Positions 1 through 61,910 of a DNA stretch of 64,000 nt are shown one piece after another (the stretch's first letter is position 1; each line of letters starts with the position of its first letter). A program made the translations under genes and the position numbers. A model generated the notes under the pieces. That model did not search any database and was not told the origin of the DNA. It saw only the letters and a program-made list of their open reading frames with translations. This DNA is from Anolis carolinensis (taxonomy: Eukaryota), in the NCBI RefSeq assembly GCF_035594765.1, contig NW_026943821.1:13051608-13115607 (forward strand), given 5' to 3'.

Positions 1-9
1 CTGACCTAC

Positions 10-681
10 CTGTCAAGTCGCTTCCTTTTCTTCTCAGGGGACCACCTTGAGACTTCTCTCTTGAAATCTGCCAATTCATCCTTCAGGGCATTTACAAGAC
101 ATGGGAAATCATACATTTCCAAGTGCCATCTTGATATTACAAAAACCCTAGGAGAAGGCTCGCCTGCTTTGGTCAAGTTTTCACAGTAATGATTCCTTAT
201 CTTCTTCAGGATTCCTTCTTCACTGAAATTGGGGTTTTCTCTCTCCGATTCCAAGCTCTTATCCACTTTGGTGCGTACATAAACAAACTTCCTCTTTATT
301 TTCTGGATTGCGTGGACCAGCCTTTGGTCATCTTCAGTGAACCTAATTTCAGAGACAATGATGAAGAAATCATACTTGTTTAAATCTATATTCTTTACAT
401 ATTCCTCACTTTTAAATTCATTTGTTCCAATCCCTGGAAGATCCCAGAGTGTTATGTCTGAATATTCAGGATGCACATAGGCCGTTGGTTCATTTAGGAC
501 CTGTATCACATCTGTCACAGCAGCACCGCCTTCTACATCTGTCTTCATACCCCGCAGGGCATTCACAAGTGACGATTTCCCAGTTCCAGTTTCCCCAATG
601 ACGGCAATGTTAAATGTGACATCTTCAAGTTCCTGTATTGAGGATGGGTGTGAGTTTGTTCCCCCCATGATGATTTTGTGG
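10..681 (-). CDS. IRG (p47 immunity-related GTPase) gene 1, G-domain exon; ATG at 668; gene probably continues beyond the left window edge
   Basis: ORF 6-668 has G1 GETGTGKSS, G3 LWDLPGIG, YDFFII, G4 RTKVD and PRVFVIS. N-terminus MGGTNS fits MGxxxS myristoylation. Acceptor tttttacag| precedes 681; donor GACAG|gtaggt at 10/9 overlaps the ORF stop. Confidence 0.9.
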
Positions 682-803
682 CTGTAAAAAAGACATGGAT
701 ATTGTTAATAGAGACATTTTGCTTTCACATTATGGATTTGTTGGAGACAACAACCTTCTACAAGCCTCCTATACTAGTTATTTGTTATGTATATAGTTGA
801 GAT

Positions 804-9704: not shown

Positions 9705-10993
9705 TCATGTTCTGTTAAGAGGTCTATTGATATCATATTCAACATGCTTCAGGGCTTCTTTAGAAACCCTTTCAGCATCTTCAGCCACTTGATCTAGGAA
9801 TTTATAGAGCATTCTGGAAGTGCTTGTAAATGATAAGCCTACATTAGCTAAACTAGTAACCACACTAAGCGGAAAATATTTGTTCCAGAAAACAACAAAT
9901 GTCATAACAATATTGAAACATTTCTTTATTATACTATCTGTGCTGATGTATTCTTCTTGTGATGATTTAATTTGAGCCTTCAACTCTTCTACAGGCTTGT
10001 TTATGTGCCAGGCCAACAAAGCTAATGAGTCACCATCCAATCCAAATTTCTTGTACATGTCAGCCATATATTTCTGCAAAAAACTAGCATTGAAAGCCAC
10101 AGGAAAATCTGGAAGTGGAACAGCATTTATGCATGCAGTCACCAGAGAAACTTTCCATAACTCTCCCTCTAGGAGCTGTTTCTTCTGCTGTATGATATCA
10201 GATGACACATTGGGGAGATTCAAGATGAACTTCAGTTTCTTCAGTATGGGCAGATCTCCTTCAAGCCTCTCTATCAGAAGGTAAAAGTCAAACCTTTCCA
10301 ATTTGCAAGAGGATAGCAGAAAAACCTGGGGGATAAAACTCCCCATGTATACTTGGAAATATCTGTTACAGTCATCCCTAATATTTTGTAGGACATTTGC
10401 TTCATTGAAGGTCCTAGGATAATCCCTTTCCATGTTTGTCAAATCTTCATCCACTTTTGTGCGCACAAAATAAAACTTCTTCTTTTCATTATCAATTATC
10501 TGAGCTAGGTCAATGTGAATGTCCCGGAAGCGCTTTGAGCATAGAATAATGAAGAAGTCGTAACGGTGGAAATTAACCTTCTCAAGGTAATCATTTGATC
10601 GAAATTCTGGAGCTCCTACCCCTGGCAGGTCCCAGAACTTCACATTCGGATCATTCGGACTCTCATAACAGATTGGGTTCGAAGTTGTTGCTGTCACTCC
10701 AACTTGGGCAGCTCCAACATCTCCAGGCTTTAGGCCTCTCATAGCATTGATGAAAGAAGATTTCCCAGCCCCAGTCTCCCCAATGACTGCAATGTGAAGC
10801 TCTGTTTTTTCCCACAATTCCAGGGATCTTTCCAACTCACGAGCTACTTCATAAATAGATACAGCATTAAAAGTTTCACATAATTTCTCAGCTATGTTTC
10901 GGATTAAGTCTTCTTTGGCATTTGGTAAAGAAATTATGGTTTTTAAAACTGATCTCATCTCTTCAAAAAATGATATTTCAGAAAGTGCATTTT
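9705..10993 (-). CDS. IRG gene 2, main coding exon (full-length GKS IRG; ~440 aa with upstream micro-exon)
   Basis: 417-aa ORF with GETGAGKSS, FWDLPGVG, RYDFFII, RTKVD and C-terminal helical region (AVPLP, FGLDGDSL). Acceptor ttttttcttttctag| at 10994/10993; frame is open from acceptor to ATG 10958. Confidence 0.93.
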
Positions 10994-11060
10994 CTAGAAA
11001 AGAAAAAAGTTATTGAATCAATATTTGACTTGGCAACACAAAAGCAAGAGCATAACAATA

Positions 11061-11382
11061 CCGTATATACTCGAAGATAAGCCGAGTTTTTCAGCCCTTA
11101 TTTATGAGCTGAAAAGGCCTCCCTCGTCTTATATTCGGGTCAAGGTCAAGCCAGCAGCGGAGCCTGGAGGCCACAGTATGTTTTCTTTTCCAAAACCTCC
11201 CTCCTCTGCTTCTCCTCCCAGCCTGGTTATCTTATATTTTTTTGAGAGAGAGAGAGACAGAGACAAGAAGCAAATGTTTTCAAAAGCGAAAGGAGAATGT
11301 GAGAGAAACCCTTGCAAGACAGATTGCATGGGCATAAGGGGAAGAAAAAAAGATATTCTTGCAAATTTGCATGATTCATTAC

Positions 11383-11421
<39 letters not shown>

Positions 11422-12058
11422 TACTACTATTACTACTATTATTGCAAGAACATATGAGTCCAAAGGGAGGGAAGGAGGGAAAAGAGAGCAACAAAAGGTG
11501 TGAATTTCTTTTTATTCCTAAGGAAACAAAAATGAGGTGGGGTTTTTTGGGAGGGGGAGAGAAGTTTTAAAAAGCCTTTTCTGGCTACTTTTAGAGTTTG
11601 AAAAAGGGAGAAAGAAAAGAGGTGGGAAAGGGCAGGAGAAAAGAGGAAAAAGGTTTTTTTAGGGGGGCTTTACTTGCATTTCTTCCTTGGGTAAATGCAT
11701 GCCCCAAAGCTTCTAAATATTTATATAGATGTTCCCCCTACAAATACATTAATATATGAATTTTCCCCTCATATGTTTACAGGTCTTTGCAAAATCCTAT
11801 GTAAATTTAGATAACTAGAGATTTCCACATACCTGTATATCTGTTCCTATATGTATACATTAATTTTATATATGAATATATGATGCCTCAATTAATGTAA
11901 TTTTATTGGTATCTAATTTTATTTTTGAAATTTACCAGTAGCTGCTGCATTTCCCACTCTCGGCTTATACTTGAGTCAATAAGTTTTCCCAGTTTTTTGT
12001 GGTAAAATTAGGTGCCTCGGCTTATATTCGGGTCAGCTTATACTCGAATATATATGGT
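11061..12058. mobile_element. Non-autonomous Tc1/mariner-superfamily DNA element in IRG gene 2 intron
   Basis: TIRs CCGTATATACTCGA.. / ..TACTCGAATATATATGG flanked by TA; internal (TAT)n. Confidence 0.7.
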
Positions 12059-15011
12059 AATTCAGTTGGAAACAGTGAATCTATGTATTAATGAAAATTT
12101 TAATTCATTAAACATTTAATAGACATTCAGAAGCTGAAATGCAAGAGTTCTGTTTCTTTCGATTTTGTAAAGTCAAAATATCAATAGTTTTTAAAAAGTG
12201 CAACCCAATATATATCTTCTTAGAAATCATTTCAATGAATTCCTGCCCTTAAAGTTGCTGAGAATGGGGAGCACAGTGTGTATTCCTCTATTCTTTTACC
12301 CTGTGGTTTTCTAACCATTGAGCAATAGGAGGGATGAAATTTAGGTCAGCTCCAAGCCTGCTCTAAATGTTAATCCATCTTGGGGTCACAGTAGAGAGTT
12401 AAGGAGAAGGTTTTGGATCCTGCAGGTGAGGGGACGGTCTGCAAGTGAGACAGTCAGGTAGCCAGTCACTAAACGGAAGTGATTCAGGTGCAGCTTCTCA
12501 GTAGCAGCAGAAGAAAGGAGGGAGCTCAGTGGAGACAAACAGAGGGGTACTTTTATTGCACCCCAAAGCCCAGGGAGTGATTTATCTCTGGGGAAGCCAG
12601 AGGTTTGCTGGCCTAGGAAGCAGGCAAAGACACAGAGTGCCCCTAAGAGAGGTGAGATCATGCCAGAGGGAGTCTAGACACTATTTTATGACCCTGTTCT
12701 TTGTGGTTTTTATTCTTATTTCTTTTCTCACCCCGAGTTTTAACTTAGTGTTCATGTGGCCCGCCCTTGTTTTTATTGTTCTGCTGATTTTGCGTTGTAA
12801 TGTATATTATCATTTATTGTATTGTTCAATATGTTATGATTTGTTGTTCTTTTTATATTCCGTTATATTGTATTGTTCTGGGCATGGCCCCATGTAAGCC
12901 GCCCCGAGTCCCCATTGGGGAGATGGTGGCGGGGTATAAATAAAGTTTATTATTATTATTATTAGACACTAGAGGTGTGGAAAATGGCAAAAATCTGTTT
13001 TGATTTTGTTACAAAATTTGGATCCCCCCTCCCCCTGAGTTTAATTTTGGGAAGATTGGGGGGGGGGGGCGTATGGATTCACAATTCAAAATCAGAAGTT
13101 ATTGTTTCGGTAAGATTCGATCCATTAGCGCTAATGGATAAACTTGTGAGGCTAGTTTCTCCATCATTTTTATGGCTATTGGGATGAAACTTGACAAGCT
13201 AACTCCTTAGCCTCTCACATTTGCTTGTGTGAACACACATGCAAAATTTCTCTGAGGCATTCAGATCCATACCTGGCTAGGCTACAACTGCTACCTGACT
13301 CTACTTTCTTGTCCAGGGAGCTTTTTTTGTCTTAGATATATCCAATTTCTTGCCCCTTGCCCTGCCTGAAGATCAAGCTCGATCCTGGATCCTGGATTTG
13401 GGATTAATGTCACAGGGCTGGGCAACACTTACCTGTCCTGGCTGATTTTACACTGCTATTGTGCCGTCACACCCAGGCACCTTTAGTAAATTAAGATGTG
13501 CTCCTTTCTTTGCCGGGTGAACTACAGGGGCCTTACTTTGAAGCTCAGGAGTCCCAGCAACTAAGGCCACTTCAAATCGAACATCAAACAAGAATTTTTA
13601 TTTTCTCAAAGTTCTTAACAGGCTTGGCACAAGTTGTTGGGGTTACAAATACAAACAGTCAACTTATAAAATCATGCAGATGTTCCTTTTGTTTTTCCTT
13701 TTAGCTGCTGGGTTAACTTCCTCCAAAGGTGAAGAGATCCTGGGATGCTCTTTACCCTAACCTTGTGTTGCTTTATCAGAAAGAGCTGGTCTTTCCCTAT
13801 CTAAACTCAAAATTAGCTTGGAGACGAAGAGGTTAGAGCTTCTTCCAATGGCAGAAAAATCCTGGGATACTTTCTACCCTAGTGCTGAGTTACTATTTTT
13901 AGAAAGAGCAGTTCTTTCTCTATCTAAACTCAAAACCAGTTTTAAAGGCAAGAGGTTAGTACTTACGATGGCTTGTCTGAGCTGGCCTGGCTTGACCACA
14001 CAAGCACATCTGAGTTCTTTTTCTCTTCTGTAAAAAGGCAAAAAGGGCTTCTCAAAATGGAGATTTCATCTCCAGGAAAAAGGGGCGGTCTCAAGAACAA
14101 AAGGATACTTTTGCAAGCCGAAAGCGGCAAATGCTTTGCAGGCTGGTTACAAACCTCTGTTAATAATTAACTATCAGGGTGCTGTTGAACCTGTAGCAAC
14201 CCTGGAAGAAATACAAAAAAAAGGGGGGTGCTGTTTCCTACAACTATGAGACAATGCAAATGAAAGCCCTGAGAGATGGAACAGCTATCCTTACAGTGCA
14301 ATATAGAACTGGCATAATTGTAGCAACTCAATTGATGACTCCTGGACGAAGTATAACCGTTTTAACAGTTTTATGGCATTTATATGTTCTATTTGTTTTA
14401 TGTAAGTGATATATTGTATTTTACTTGTTATATAAATGGCATTTAATATTGCCATACTGTAAGCCACTCAGAGTCCCCTTCGAGGTGAGAAGAGCGGGAT
14501 ATAAATATAGTAAATAAATAAATATTGAGCTCCATTCCTTAACCCCACAGCTGGATTTGCTGTGATAGTAGCAAAAATGTCACTATTGTACATGTGGACA
14601 TATTAGGCCTGTACGTCTTGAATTTGAAATTACTTGTCCTTACCACAACCAGAAGTGCAACACTCCTTAAAATCAATTTAACCCCTCCCCATCTATACCC
14701 AATATTTCACATGCAGTGTAAGAATGCGGTAAAGGTAGAAAAATGTATTAATGAGAAAGAAAAGTCTGACTAGGAGAGGCTACAGCAGTTTGCTGTTGCC
14801 TCAGCTTCCAGGTATGTGTTGTTCTACCCCTCCTTTCCTCTGTCCTCATGACTATTTCTGCACTTTTTTCTCAGTTTTCCGCAAATGAAGTAAATTGAGT
14901 AAAGACTAGGAAAGTAGAATGGCCCTCTGGCATCTGTTAAGCATCCCCCATCCAAATAAATAATAGTTTTGAGTTCTTATTTCTTCATAAAACATCTACC
15001 ATATTCCTTAC

Positions 15012-15073
15012 CAGCCCTCTTTGGTTGTGAAATATTGCAACCCATGTCGGCTGTTCTGGAGGACTCCGGTGAT
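15012..15073 (-). CDS. IRG gene 2 micro-exon encoding MGCNISQPKRA (ATG at 15045)
   Basis: Acceptor ttcttctttag| before 15073, ATG in gacATGG context, donor GCTG|gtaagg at 15012/15011. Phase-1 end joins the phase-1 acceptor at 10993 in frame (G+AA = Glu). Confidence 0.75.
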
Positions 15074-16667: not shown

Positions 16668-18225
16668 TAATAATCCTTTATTTTTAACTCACCCTCTCTC
16701 CCCAAAAGAACTCAGGGCGGCTTTCAAAAACAAGAACGGCACACATTCAATGCCATGTGCTATGGTAGAAAAATAGAAATAAAACAGAGATAGGAACTGT
16801 CCCAATAAATGATCCCTCTGTTTTATAAGGAGATAGAAAGTGGAAAGGAGCAGAGCAGAGCAGAGCAGAGCAGAAGAAAGAATGATTAAAGAAGCAAGAG
16901 GGGTGGAGAAGATAACCTCCTCCCCCAAACCATCCTACCCCCACCCCCTGGTTTTAGAGAGAGAGAGAGAGAGAGAGAGAGCGCACAGAGAGGAGTGGAA
17001 GGAAAGGAAAAGAGAATTAAGAAGCAAGAGCGGGTGGAGAGAATTATCTCTGTTTTGGGGGAGATAGAGAGAGGAAAGGAATGGAAAGGAGAGTTAAGGA
17101 GCAAGAAGAGGGTGATGACACCAGTAGTCTGAAGTTTTGAGTGGGAGCCAGGTAAACAACCTTGGGGGGCTGGTTCCATCCGGTGGGAACCCCTGCTGTA
17201 TACTAATGCTAATGTGTCAAGTTTTGCTAACCTGTATATATCTTTTTTTGGTCACTGAGGAAGTTAGTGCAATCAGCCATCTGTGTTCACAGAGTCTGCA
17301 TTACTTCAACCATCGTCAGCTTGTGTATACTTTAAAAAAAATCCTAAAAGCAAACCTAGACATTGCCAATTTATATATGGGACACAAGTTCACCAAACCA
17401 AACTCAACAAGACCTACTATATTCCCAGGTTCCTTCTCTGCACAGTCTCCAACCTATCCACCACGCGATCTGCTATTGACCCATAGTTAGGTTCTCATAA
17501 ACCTTCTTCTCAGAGCCTGATAAATTGGCAAAAACAAAGATGTTCCTTATGGTTCAAATGTTCCTTACAGCTCATGATCTTGTCGTTCCATTTGTATAAG
17601 AAATAAATCCAATTCAAACAAGTAAATTCTATTTGTATTACTTTCTGAAAGCAACACACTTTTACATATCAGGCTCAGCACTTCTATGCCAAACCCTTCT
17701 CTGCCCCATCATCATTTTCACTCTTTCTCGTCCTCTGCTCATGAGATAGACTGGCACCCCAACACAAGTGTCAACCTAAATTGAAGGTGGTGGTGGGGAG
17801 CCAAAGGAAACAACAGGGAAGAAGATACATCAGTGGGGAATGGGAGAGGATTGTGACAGGATGATGTGCAATGGAATATGGAGAAGGCAGAAACAAAGGG
17901 GTTTTCAAGTCTGGATTAGGCTTCCGTGGAAAGGTAAGCAGGGGGGCAAGACAGGAGTTTCAAATCTGGGGATTGCTTCAATGGGAAGGTAGGGAAAGGA
18001 GTAAGGGACTGGTGTTGTTGGAAAGACTGCAGTGAAGAGCTGGACAGCAGACAGATTGAGGTGAGAAGGTAGAGCTAATTAAACAATTGCTACAAAATAA
18101 GTGATCTGTAAATATTGGTGGCCTGAGTGTACTCTGAAAAGCGCAGAAGTGATGATAGAATTGTTTAATTCTGTACTGGGGTGGAGTAGGAGCACAGACA
18201 TTCAGGAAAAGAAGTGGAGAAAACT

Positions 18226-18744: not shown

Positions 18745-18960
18745 CTTTTGGAAGAGCAGAAGAAACAGTAGTCCTGTTTAATTTCAATGTGTTTGTGAAC
18801 TTGTTAGGATGGCTTTCCTTTCCTGCACTTATAAACTCTTTGCTGCTATCTTTTGATCTGATGAAAGTCCACTTGTTTGCTTGATTTTGTAGGCTATATA
18901 TCAACATTGGTATTGCCCGCCCATCAAGGAAGGGAAGGGAGGGAATTTCCTGATAGGGAA
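18745..18960 (-). promoter_or_regulatory. Probable promoter and non-coding exon 1 of IRG gene 2
   Basis: Donor AAG|gtaagt at 18745/18744, TATA-like TATATA ~18895-18901, GC box GCCCGCCC 18915-18922, consensus NF-kB GGGAATTTCC 18941-18950. Confidence 0.6.
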
Positions 18961-47923: not shown

Positions 47924-49120
47924 ATGGGTATTGCATTAACAAAATCGTTAGTTAAAGAAGAGCTTCAACGATTCAAGGCTGCCAAGGAAGAAGGGAACAT
48001 TGAAGATGTTAAAGCCAAAATAATGAAGGATATGGAATTATTAAATAACACCACACTTCATATTGCCATTACGGGAGATTCGGGATCTGGTAAATCATCA
48101 CTTGTCAATGCCCTGCGAGAAATGACAGATGAAGAAAAGGACTCAGCACCGACTGGAGAAATCGAAATGACAAAGGATAAACAGTCATATAAGCATCCCA
48201 AGTTTCCTCAAGTTACACTTTGGGACCTGCCTGGAATTGGAACACCTAATTTTAAAGCAGATGAATATCTGAAGCAGGTAAATTTTCGCCAGTATGATTT
48301 TTTCATCATTGCTTCAGGAGAACGATTCACTGAAAATGATGTCAAGCTGGCTTGCGAAATTAAGGAAATGAAGAAGAAGTTCTATTATGTGCGCACAAAA
48401 ATGGATGTAAGCATTAGTAATAACAAAAAGAGGAAAAACTTCAGTGAGGAAAAAACCCTCCAGGAAATCAGGAATTATTGCATCCAAAGATTGAGGGGCA
48501 CAGGAGAACATTCACCAAGGGTTTTCCTAATATCAAGATGGCATTTGAACAACTATGAGTTTCCACTCCTTGTAAAAGCATTGGAGGAGGACCTGGATGC
48601 TCTCAAGAGACATGTTTTAATCATGGCTCTTCCAACTTTTTCAAAAGAAGTCATCAAAAAGAAAGAGAATGCTATGTCAGATCTTATATGGAAACTGTCC
48701 CTTCTGTCTTGTACTGTTGGGGCCATTCCTATCCCAGGCCTCTCTCTTGCTTGTGACATTGGTATCTTGGTGTCAACAATGAGAAAAATATTCAATTGCT
48801 TTGGGCTGGATGCAGAATCCCTTCGTAGGCTTGGAGAACGTGTTGGAAAACCTGTAGATGAATTGAAGTCTGCTAGGAAGAAATTCCAAGGAGTTGATAC
48901 GCTCACCAAAGAATTTGTAATTGACTACTTGCAGAAGTCAGTGGCATGGATAACAGTATCTACAGTGGAGTTGGTTCTAGATTTTGTACCTGTCGTGGGC
49001 TCGGTGGTCGGTGGAGGAGCTTCTTTTGTAACCACGTACTACATGCTGAAGAATTTCCTGAGTGATGCTGTGGAAGATGCACAGAATGTTCTGGCAAAAG
49101 TTTGTGAAAAAAAAGAATGA
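47924..49120 (+). CDS. IRG gene 4 (398 aa, canonical IRGC/IIGP5-like GKS IRG)
   Basis: Acceptor ttttttctctttcag| at 47895, Kozak gccATGG, MGIALT myristoylation-type start, GDSGSGKSS, LWDLPGIGTP, YDFFII, RTKMD, AIPIPGLSLACD, FGLDAESL; AATAAA at 49375. Confidence 0.95.
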   Translation: MGIALTKSLVKEELQRFKAAKEEGNIEDVKAKIMKDMELLNNTTLHIAITGDSGSGKSSLVNALREMTDEEKDSAPTGEIEMTKDKQSYKHPKFPQVTLWDLPGIGTPNFKADEYLKQVNFRQYDFFIIASGERFTENDVKLACEIKEMKKKFYYVRTKMDVSISNNKKRKNFSEEKTLQEIRNYCIQRLRGTGEHSPRVFLISRWHLNNYEFPLLVKALEEDLDALKRHVLIMALPTFSKEVIKKKENAMSDLIWKLSLLSCTVGAIPIPGLSLACDIGILVSTMRKIFNCFGLDAESLRRLGERVGKPVDELKSARKKFQGVDTLTKEFVIDYLQKSVAWITVSTVELVLDFVPVVGSVVGGGASFVTTYYMLKNFLSDAVEDAQNVLAKVCEKKE

Positions 49121-54495: not shown

Positions 54496-55419
54496 TTATT
54501 CGATCTCCAAATATTTACTTGCACGGCTAAATGTATGATCTTTATTCCCACGGAGGAAGCGTGCAGTGCTGGCCCATAGCCCTGAGGTCCTGATCCGGTA
54601 GTGGATGCTACCATCTCTTACATTATAGATATTGATGATATTTTGCCCATTCCCAGAAGCAAAAGTCACCACCTGCCCACCACAATCCACAACCATGTGG
54701 GCATTGTCTTGGATGCAGAATGGCTCCTTGGCAAACTCCTCTATAGCAAAATCAAGGCAGCCCCCAAGTTCAGGGGAAAGGGCCCCCCAGGACTGCAATT
54801 TCCCTCTCACCCTCCGCATATTGAAGATGCTCAACGGTTCCTGACGAACTGAGAGTCTTGCGAGGTACATCTCCGGTGTCAGCTCCCGGATACTGTGCTG
54901 GATCTCATTGTATAAGAGATACACTGAAATCTCACACTCTCCATTGCCAGAGAGAAATTCTATCGGCGTCCCGGCACACTGGATAACCATCCGAGCATTT
55001 TGCTGCACCAACGGGGGTTCCTTGTCAAAGATGTCAATGGCGACGTCGAAACAAGCCTTGAGAAGAATGTTTACCCCACTCAATTGATCGCGATGCCTCA
55101 AGAGATTCCCCACCGTCAGGGGTTCAAAGGAGGGCAGCAGGGTGGCCACGAAGAACAGGGCATCCTTGAGGACTTTGATGACACCAGGAGACCACCACCG
55201 TTGCCTGGTCGCCACAGACAACCCCTGCCCTCTGCTCATGGGAGAATGGTCTTCCTGGCCCACAGTAAGCCAAATAACAAATAGGAGGAGGAAAGAAAGC
55301 AACACCACAAATGTCACTACCATTAAAAATTTCCATAGGATTTTTTTCATGTGAGCAGCAAAGAAGGGGAGCATTGCATCAAGGCCCCACTGGATGCCAT
55401 TATGCAGCCAAGCTGCCAT
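54496..55419 (-). CDS. Uncharacterised 307-aa membrane protein with two tandem ~80-aa repeat domains
   Basis: Uninterrupted 924-bp ORF in non-repetitive DNA; acceptor ttttatttctttcag| 4 nt before ATG; hydrophobic helix aa ~27-53; internal repeat aa 99-178 vs 194-277 conserved at protein level. Confidence 0.85.
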   Translation of the reverse strand: MAAWLHNGIQWGLDAMLPFFAAHMKKILWKFLMVVTFVVLLSFLLLFVIWLTVGQEDHSPMSRGQGLSVATRQRWWSPGVIKVLKDALFFVATLLPSFEPLTVGNLLRHRDQLSGVNILLKACFDVAIDIFDKEPPLVQQNARMVIQCAGTPIEFLSGNGECEISVYLLYNEIQHSIRELTPEMYLARLSVRQEPLSIFNMRRVRGKLQSWGALSPELGGCLDFAIEEFAKEPFCIQDNAHMVVDCGGQVVTFASGNGQNIINIYNVRDGSIHYRIRTSGLWASTARFLRGNKDHTFSRASKYLEIE

Positions 55420-55611
55420 ATTCCTGAAAGAAATAAAATGTCATCAGTCATGTGGTAGATATCGTAAAGCTTTAATTCTCAGGTTGTACTTCTGTCTCAT
55501 CGTTTATTCTTGGAAACTAAGCTAGTGGTCATTACTGTTGGAAATACAACAATGGTTAGCACTGAAGAGTGAAGTATGCTGCACAGTGGAGCTGTAGTCA
55601 TAGGGTTAGAT

Positions 55612-61619: not shown

Positions 61620-61910
61620 TACATATCGAGTGCAACCTCTTTCTTTTGTCTTCTCTGAAGAAAAATGAAACCACCGGACTCTTTTTTGAGCTTTCGATTT
61701 CTTTGAAACCACGTGCCCCATCCTTTACTGCACTAAAACCCAATTTGTCTATACAAATTATCATCCTGGTTCAGAACTGAAAGCGAACGTACTGCATTTG
61801 GCTACTAGTCAGTCCGATGTAGAAGAATCTCGTTGCTTTGTTTCCTGCAGCAGGACTTTCTTTTGAATCTATCTAAGCAACTTTCTTTGGGGCCTTGGAC
61901 TCACCCCTGC
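61620..61910 (-). promoter_or_regulatory. Probable IRF-responsive promoter/first exon(s) of the 307-aa gene
   Basis: GAAATCGAAAGC on minus (61701-61690), GAAAAATGAAACC (61660-61672), GAAAGCGAAC (~61779); minus-strand donors gtaagt (~61622) and gtgagt (~61904); CpG-enriched 61.6-62.5 kb. Confidence 0.45.

What the first reader, a model, noticed from the sequence alone, without database searches (positions are those of the whole stretch)
15012..15073. Hidden micro-exon supplies a dual-acylation tag (MGCNIS) to IRG gene 2
Seen: a 62-bp exon with canonical splice sites, absent from the ORF track, splices in frame to give MGCNISQPKRAENALSEISFFEEMRS.... Established: MGxxxS is the N-myristoylation consensus, MGC adds palmitoylation (SH4-like), and myristoylation matters for vacuole targeting of mouse Irga6; most IRG CDSs are single-exon. 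Inference: skipping this exon, or using the strong donor at 13433/13432, would give a non-acylated isoform from ATG 10958, i.e. a splicing-controlled membrane-targeting switch.
Basis: partly seen in the sequence, partly recalled or inferred. Interest (0 to 1): 0.7.

Follow-up and report, generated by a model that had tools for sequence, protein, structure and literature searches.

The report
Lizard IRG exon adds lipid anchor
A 62-base exon, spliced into the main message of a green-anole immune GTPase gene and already in RefSeq, supplies the protein's start with a likely myristate-plus-palmitate membrane anchor; the proposed on/off splicing switch was not seen, and the exon may have taken over from an older start codon that slipped out of frame.

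Summary
The exon is real: window 15073-15012 (minus strand, 62 nt, AG/GT ends) joins 10993 in frame to give MGCNISQPKRAENALS... The joint appears in 8 of 8 transcript-like runs (5 studies); in 7 it lies on the contig that carries the long exon. It is not hidden: RefSeq XP_062818138.1 of Anolis carolinensis is exactly this protein. It is the main start exon of an immunity-related GTPase (IRG). Myristoylation is likely; Cys3 palmitoylation is plausible and untested. The proposed switch is unsupported: no listed joint skips the exon or uses donor 13433 (one table cut, one branch unresolved). The variation seen is a repeat-derived 67-nt leader exon with two upstream ATGs; RefSeq adds a repeat-derived 61-nt exon that would frameshift the MGC start. 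Two points go beyond the annotation. Cys3 occurs in none of the other IRG starts surveyed. Reptile orthologues start in the long exon, where the anole keeps an out-of-frame ATG (10990), so the tag may have arisen by frameshift capture of a leader exon (about 0.55). Conservation in other anoles could not be tested. Interest 0.3.

The parts
15012..15073 (-). 62-nt start exon (E3): 28 nt of leader, ATG 15045, codons MGCNISQPKRA plus 1 nt; carries the predicted myristoylation/palmitoylation tag
   Evidence: sequence; joint in 8 of 8 runs; RefSeq X5; single copy
9705..10993 (-). long coding exon (E4) of the IRG, IIGP domain with G1 GETGAGKS, G3 DLPG, G4 TKVD; 3' UTR continues below 9300
   Evidence: (PF05049 E 2.9e-91)
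10955..10990 (-). out-of-frame ATG 10990, 3 nt after the acceptor, 11-codon frame whose TGA overlaps ATG 10958; candidate former start codon
   Evidence: inferred origin
10956..10958 (-). in-frame internal ATG (Met24), aligned with the MES Met of turtle and gecko orthologues
16693..16759 (-). 67-nt alternatively spliced leader exon (E2), repeat-derived, with upstream ATGs at 16756 (10 codons) and 16746 (38 codons, overlapping the MGC start out of frame)
   Evidence: (both inclusion and skipping)
18745..18880 (-). first exon (E1), donor at 18745; its 5' end near 18870 is inferred from a TATA-like motif, not measured
18894..18950 (-). promoter-like motifs: kappaB-type GGAAATTCCC (18950), GC box (18922), TATA-like TATATAG (18900); consensus matches only
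13967..14027 (-). 61-nt minor cassette exon of RefSeq X2/X4 and UniProt H9GVY8; would cut the MGC frame to 36 codons and offer a weak-context ATG 14009 (MCLCGQ..., no Gly2); not seen as a joint in the runs laid
13460..14290 (.). about 830-bp interspersed repeat (91-94% to three other copies) that contains the 61-nt exon
13427..13435 (-). strong donor-like site (CAG|GTAAGT, exon side ends 13433), 27 nt outside the repeat; no joint listed in any run

Best explanation
The 62-nt exon is the main start exon of an Anolis carolinensis immunity-related GTPase, spliced into the long coding exon in every run examined, and it encodes an N-terminus that is likely myristoylated on Gly2 and possibly palmitoylated on Cys3, which would anchor the GTPase to membranes. 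Shown: exon, joint, frame, GTPase motifs, prior annotation. Inferred: initiation at ATG 15045 (first ATG when E2 is skipped, strong context), Met removal and myristoylation by N-myristoyltransferase (0.85), S-palmitoylation of Cys3 (0.5), a role in membrane loading as for Irga6/Irgb10 (0.7). Splicing does not normally switch the tag off; the leader exon E2 would tune translation through upstream ATGs, and the repeat-derived 61-nt exon would be a rare, mostly unproductive variant. Origin (0.55, inferred): the ancestral start was ATG 10990 in the long exon; a small indel put it out of frame and a leader exon supplied the new in-frame, acylatable start.
For: Joint 10993-15012 in 4 of 4 runs at the depth of the long-exon contig (143.6, 97.2, 128.8, 28.8) and 4 of 4 more (43, 78.2, 46.6, 91.8); intron contigs outside repeats mostly 5-17. 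RefSeq X5 identical. G-C-N-I-S-Q fits the myristoylation pattern (pattern recalled). MGxxxS is a family trait: 11 mouse IRGs (PMC1297648), 19 of 144 representative IRGs. Met-Gly-Cys is the dual-acylation consensus and Ser6 matters (PMC2132482 passages). Irga6 G2A loads poorly on the vacuole (PMC2581590 passage citing unpublished data); GM4951 G2A loses lipid-droplet targeting. Origin: nine turtle and gecko orthologue rows begin 10 residues before the Met aligned with Met24; their slots 1-5 score +3 to +6 against the ATG 10990 frame but -4 to -7 against the main frame, slots 6-11 score +8 to +20 against the main frame; start-to-G1 distance would be 69, against 68-70 in geckos and 69 in Zootoca.
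Against: No acylation, ribosome or protein data. Contigs drop rare variants; the joint table hid 51 rows; joints at repeats were dropped in X13 (2) and X8 (3); in X9 the long-exon contig (69.4) stops at 10994 and the joint contig is 46.6, an unresolved branch. RefSeq lists 5 other accessions of the gene with other starts (X1-X4), none beginning MGC. Cys3 is absent from all other IRG starts surveyed, so no conservation backs palmitoylation. The frameshift origin has only p about 0.013 for one placement, about 0.1 over eight, from two independent lineages and protein sequences only; alligator orthologues carry their own MGxxxS, so an older tag cannot be excluded.
Confidence: 0.8

Rival explanations
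1. One reading: skipping the exon or using donor 13433 makes a regulated non-acylated isoform from ATG 10958.
For: 13433 is the best-scoring donor in the region; Met24 is a conserved Met that starts many turtle paralogues; Irgm1 has a regulated exon-2 switch that changes localisation; X9 has an unresolved branch at 10994; no run is known to be interferon-stimulated.
Against: No such joint listed in 8 runs; 7 of 8 long-exon contigs run unbranched into E3; none of 9 database isoforms starts at Met24; ATG 10990 precedes and overlaps ATG 10958.
Confidence: 0.08
2. A different switch: inclusion of the repeat-derived 61-nt exon 14027-13967 frameshifts the MGC start and yields an MCLCGQ... isoform without Gly2 (possibly palmitoylated only), or acts as a poison exon.
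For: RefSeq X2 and X4 (3 accessions) and UniProt H9GVY8 contain it; canonical splice sites; MGC frame stops after 36 codons.
Against: Not listed as a joint in 8 runs; weak donor (rank 21 of 364) and weak ATG context downstream of a strong ATG; inside a young multi-copy repeat, typical of low-level exonisation.
Confidence: 0.1
3. The main product is N-terminally extended and not myristoylated (RefSeq X1 from ATG 18907 through E2, or X3 from an exon at 61721), so MGC is internal.
For: X1 and X3 exist in RefSeq; E2 is in 52-100% of upstream joints by contig depth in 7 runs; contigs reach 19239 and 19284.
Against: ATG 18907 has a weak context and lies upstream of the TATA-like motif at 18900; the mean depth of those contigs (15.9, 18.1) against joints of 42-49 fits a short first exon plus background (my arithmetic; contigs cannot show starts); no joint from 22647 to 15073 was listed (table cut).
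Confidence: 0.1
4. The tag and its exon are old and conserved in reptiles, and annotation missed the exon in geckos, lacertids and turtles; ATG 10990 is a coincidence.
For: Alligator orthologues begin MGNSQS or MGNHQS; Ser6 recurs in gecko and turtle starts; null rate about 0.1.
Against: 17 of 21 rows of the subfamily do not start MGxxxS; alligator starts align with the long-exon start of turtles and geckos rather than with the anole exon; a search with residues 1-90 found only the anole cluster among 239 candidates.
Confidence: 0.3

Closest known systems
RefSeq XP_062818138.1 / XP_008123707.1, interferon-inducible GTPase 5 (Anolis carolinensis)
   Same: The same gene, exon and protein.
   Different: Nothing in sequence; acylation and origin of the exon are not part of the names returned.
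Myristoylated GKS-class mouse IRGs (Irga6/IIGP1, Irgb10, GM4951)
   Same: IIGP domain, GKS P-loop, N-terminal MGxxxS.
   Different: Irga6 has its Met at the start of the long exon; the anole tag sits on its own exon and has Cys3. Bekpen 2005 saw no other lipid motif in mouse p47 GTPases.
Mouse Irgm1 long/short isoforms
   Same: Start codon on a small penultimate exon adding a short targeting N-terminus.
   Different: Irgm1 exon 2 is truly alternative (hnRNPA2B1) and carries a dileucine motif; its palmitoylation is near the C-terminus. Here the exon looks near-constitutive and the predicted lipids are N-terminal.
Met-Gly-Cys dual acylation of Fyn and G-alpha-o; sperm hexokinase HK1S (MGQICQ)
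   Same: Gly2, nearby Cys, and Ser6 as in the G-alpha-o type; HK1S is a dual-acylated isoform-specific N-terminus (abstract).
   Different: Unrelated proteins; the resemblance is a six-residue motif, and acylation is untested here.

Membership tests
Immunity-related GTPase (IRG/p47), GKS class | IIGP domain PF05049 above cut-off | tested here: met
   306.8 bits, cut-off 24, residues 56-423; 13 PDB sequences at E<=1e-20, all p47 GTPases
Immunity-related GTPase (IRG/p47), GKS class | G1 GxxxxGKS, G3 DxPG, G4 TKxD | tested here: met
   GETGAGKS 83, DLPG 133, TKVD 190
Immunity-related GTPase (IRG/p47), GKS class | Interferon inducibility and loading on pathogen vacuoles | not testable with these tools
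   only consensus motif matches upstream; no GAS match
N-myristoylated protein | Gly2 after the initiator Met, permitted residue 3, Ser/Thr 6 | tested here: met
   GCNISQ matches the recalled PROSITE-type pattern
N-myristoylated protein | The Met is the real initiator | tested here: inconclusive
   strong context and first ATG without E2; RefSeq also models upstream starts; no ribosome data
Dually acylated Met-Gly-Cys (SH4-type) N-terminus | Met-Gly-Cys with Ser6 | tested here: met
   sequence; consensus in PMC2132482 passages
Dually acylated Met-Gly-Cys (SH4-type) N-terminus | Measured myristate and palmitate incorporation | not testable with these tools
   bench test needed
Splicing-controlled localisation switch (Irgm1 type) | Both exon-containing and exon-skipped messages at appreciable level | tested here: not met
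   only the included joint listed in 8 of 8 runs; limits: contigs, one cut table, one unresolved branch
Splicing-controlled localisation switch (Irgm1 type) | Regulation by stimulus or tissue | not testable with these tools
   run conditions not on record

The most novel reading that the evidence does not exclude
An anole IRG gained a Src-type dual-acylation anchor de novo: a small indel knocked the ancestral start codon out of frame and a formerly non-coding leader exon became the start, while alligators reached a myristoylation motif in the same subfamily by another route. It would be an N-terminally palmitoylated IRG, with repeat-derived exons on either side tuning its output.
Probability: 0.3. 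Interest if true: 0.55.

Novelty: new variant of a known kind. Interest (0 to 1): 0.3.

Why it matters
IRG function depends on which membrane the protein reaches, and membrane targeting is set largely by the termini. If confirmed, this gene shows how a fast-evolving resistance GTPase can gain a new anchor in one or two mutations, and gives a natural test of what Cys3 palmitoylation adds to a myristoylated IRG. In practice it says which of six RefSeq isoforms to clone (X5). It is not a new system: the exon is annotated, myristoylated IRGs and start codons on a penultimate exon are known, and the switch that made the finding striking was not seen.

Tried and rejected
Skip and 13433 isoforms: no joint listed. 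No run was on record as RNA; the eight laid behave as RNA because they hold canonical joints, but no DNA run was laid as control. Retrocopy as source of the joint: only 1 of 8 genome matches is identical to the long exon and E3 is single-copy. Conservation in related lizards: no orthologue above 50% identity among the 120 listed of 581 hits, none in the N-terminal search or the 150 representatives, although A. sagrei (97%), Sceloporus (84%) and Pogona (82%) appear for the neighbouring paralogue; so loss, fast divergence or missing annotation, not resolved. Shared start-exon design among paralogues: window genes at 47924 and 668 carry MG starts inside the long exon; a pattern search for a split Met-Gly start upstream of the L001 paralogue found nothing usable. 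The careful tree did not finish; the quick tree was used (95 rows, proteins outside 370-500 aa and near-duplicate frog rows left out). The donor matrix, Kozak rule and myristoylation pattern are recalled, approximate tools. Atlas look-up of ORF 54499-55419 gave no answer. Earlier findings: none. Literature searches for reptile IRGs and for IRG acylation with splicing found no paper on this gene; the library lacks most subscription journals and no supplements were read. No structure was predicted.

Full report
Observation. ATG 15045 opens MGCNISQPKRA plus one base; joined to the acceptor at 10993 the frame continues ENALSEISFFEEMRS and runs 440 codons. The long exon encodes an IRG: PF05049 at 306.8 bits, G1/G3/G4 motifs intact, nearest solved structures mouse Irga6, GM4951, Irgb10 and Tgtp2. 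The genome holds 8 matches to the G-domain, 7 on this contig.

Identity and prior annotation. The long exon is 100% identical to Anolis carolinensis 'interferon-inducible GTPase 5'. Its cluster has 9 sequences. XP_062818138.1 (X5) is exactly the proposed protein; XP_008123707.1 from the older annotation starts MGCNISQPKMAENALS; 3 of 9 start MGCNIS, 2 more contain it internally behind longer starts (X1 from ATG 18907, X3 from exons at 61721-61623 and 22712-22647), and 4 use a 61-nt exon at 14027-13967. The exon was missing from the ORF track only because it is short.

Splicing. Eight runs (7 samples, 5 studies; contigs, RNA status guessed by the tool) were laid. The joint 10993-15012 with canonical ends is in 4 of 4 and 4 of 4. 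In 7 of 8 the contig that carries the long exon continues into the small exon at one depth. No joint from 13433, 18745, 16693 or 13967 into 10993 was listed. Limits: contigs drop rare forms, hid 51 joint rows, a few joints at repeats were dropped, and run X9 branches at 10994 (69.4 against 46.6) for a reason I could not resolve; unspliced RNA is the simplest one, since X9 also has an unspliced contig at the donor. What alternates is a 67-nt leader exon, 16759-16693: included in 7 of 8 runs, skipped in 5 of 8, 52-100% inclusion by contig depth. It matches a repeat family and adds two ATGs: a 10-codon frame and a weak-context 38-codon frame that overlaps the MGC start. It would tune translation, not acylation (inference). 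The 61-nt RefSeq exon lies inside a roughly 830-bp repeat at 13460-14290, has a weak donor, would end the MGC frame after 36 codons and leaves a weak-context ATG without Gly2. It is the only documented route to a full-length non-myristoylated form downstream of the MGC start, and it looks minor.

Acylation. GCNISQ fits the myristoylation pattern (pattern recalled). MGxxxS is a known IRG feature: 11 mouse proteins (PMC1297648, passages); in my sets 6 of 119 listed hits, 19 of 144 new representatives and 5 of 88 new hits of the control search. Met-Gly-Cys is the dual-acylation consensus (PMC2132482, passages). A Cys within residues 3-7 of an MG start was found in 0 of 119, 0 of 144 and 1 of 88 (A. 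sagrei MGKRSC, Cys6 of another paralogue). So Cys3 is unusual for an IRG, and no conservation supports it. Irga6 G2A reaches the vacuole poorly (PMC2581590, passages, stated there from unpublished data), GM4951 G2A loses lipid-droplet targeting (PMC12749288, passages), and Irgm1 is palmitoylated near its C-terminus (PMC3994021, abstract).

Relatives and origin. In a quick tree of 95 rows the gene falls in a 21-row reptile clade (SH-aLRT 100) with Zootoca, geckos, turtles and alligators, on a long branch. Four of 21 rows start MGxxxS: this protein and three alligator rows; a fourth alligator row has the motif internally. Turtle and gecko orthologues start either at the Met aligned with anole Met24 or 10 residues earlier. 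The anole has an ATG at that earlier spot, 10990, 3 nt after the acceptor, 32 nt before ATG 10958 and so out of frame. Its first five codons (MHFLK) score +3 to +6 against slots 1-5 of nine orthologue rows, the main frame -4 to -7; slots 6-11 of the main frame (SFFEEM) score +8 to +20. The start-to-G1 distance would be 69, as in Zootoca (69) and geckos (68-70). 1634 of 127970 random five-codon stretches score as well, 0.013, or about 0.1 over eight placements, and the rows come from only two lineages. I put frameshift capture of a leader exon at about 0.55; the order of events cannot be told. The frame is the same in the older annotation and in the contigs laid, which show no gap over this part.

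Comparison with what is known. IRG frames usually lie on one long exon, but Irgm1 and Irgm2 have splice forms with the Met on the penultimate exon, and Irgm1 exon 2 is a regulated localisation switch (PMC13367058, abstract and one results section). An isoform-specific dual-acylated start is known for sperm hexokinase (PMC4736023, abstract). Five searches found no paper on this gene or on reptile IRG acylation; the library is partial and I read no supplements.

Verdict. A real, already annotated, near-constitutive start exon with a likely lipid anchor; switch unsupported; modest novelty in Cys3 and in a possible recent origin. Interest 0.3.

Noticed in passing
window 61721-61623 and 22712-22647 (-): RefSeq isoform X3 splices a far exon (start MGHVVSKKSKAQKR, itself MGxxxS plus basic residues) across two opposite-strand IRG genes into the MGC exon; the far exon may belong to the gene at 55424-54496, making X3 a read-through.
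   Followed up: partly
window 54496-55440 (-): 314-codon frame with an acceptor near 55424, a predicted membrane segment and what looks like an internal repeat; no Pfam family, exact sequence from ATG 55419 not in the collection.
   Followed up: partly
window 6-704 (-): IRG starting MGGTNS that stops after about 220 codons; no continuation of the family frame seen downstream in L001; truncated gene or pseudogene.
   Followed up: partly
window 27933-29210 (+): Divergent IRG on the longest branch of the tree (1.29), with FxIxSxxDLD-type changes around G4 (FVRSNIDLD); covered by contigs in 3 of 4 runs.
   Followed up: no
UniRef A0A803TSD5 (P0126): A 92%-identical version of this gene annotated in the older assembly has no second match in this assembly: divergent allele or copy-number variation.
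   Followed up: no
window 18950-18894 (-): Compact promoter-like set: kappaB-type site, GC box, TATA-like motif; IRF/ETS-like GGAAAGGAAA at 18823; no GAS match.
   Followed up: partly
window 30740-34819 (+): Frameshifted LINE (endonuclease and reverse transcriptase frames, label from recalled motifs) between IRG genes.
   Followed up: no
L001 2537-3825 (-); L003 1-3268 (+): Broken retroelement polymerase-like frames beside two IRG paralogues (labels recalled, not searched).
   Followed up: no
P0025, P0151, P0241 (turtle orthologues): The 10-residue start segment (MESxSALMKG) is tandemly repeated, so the N-terminus of this subfamily is unstable in turtles too.
   Followed up: no
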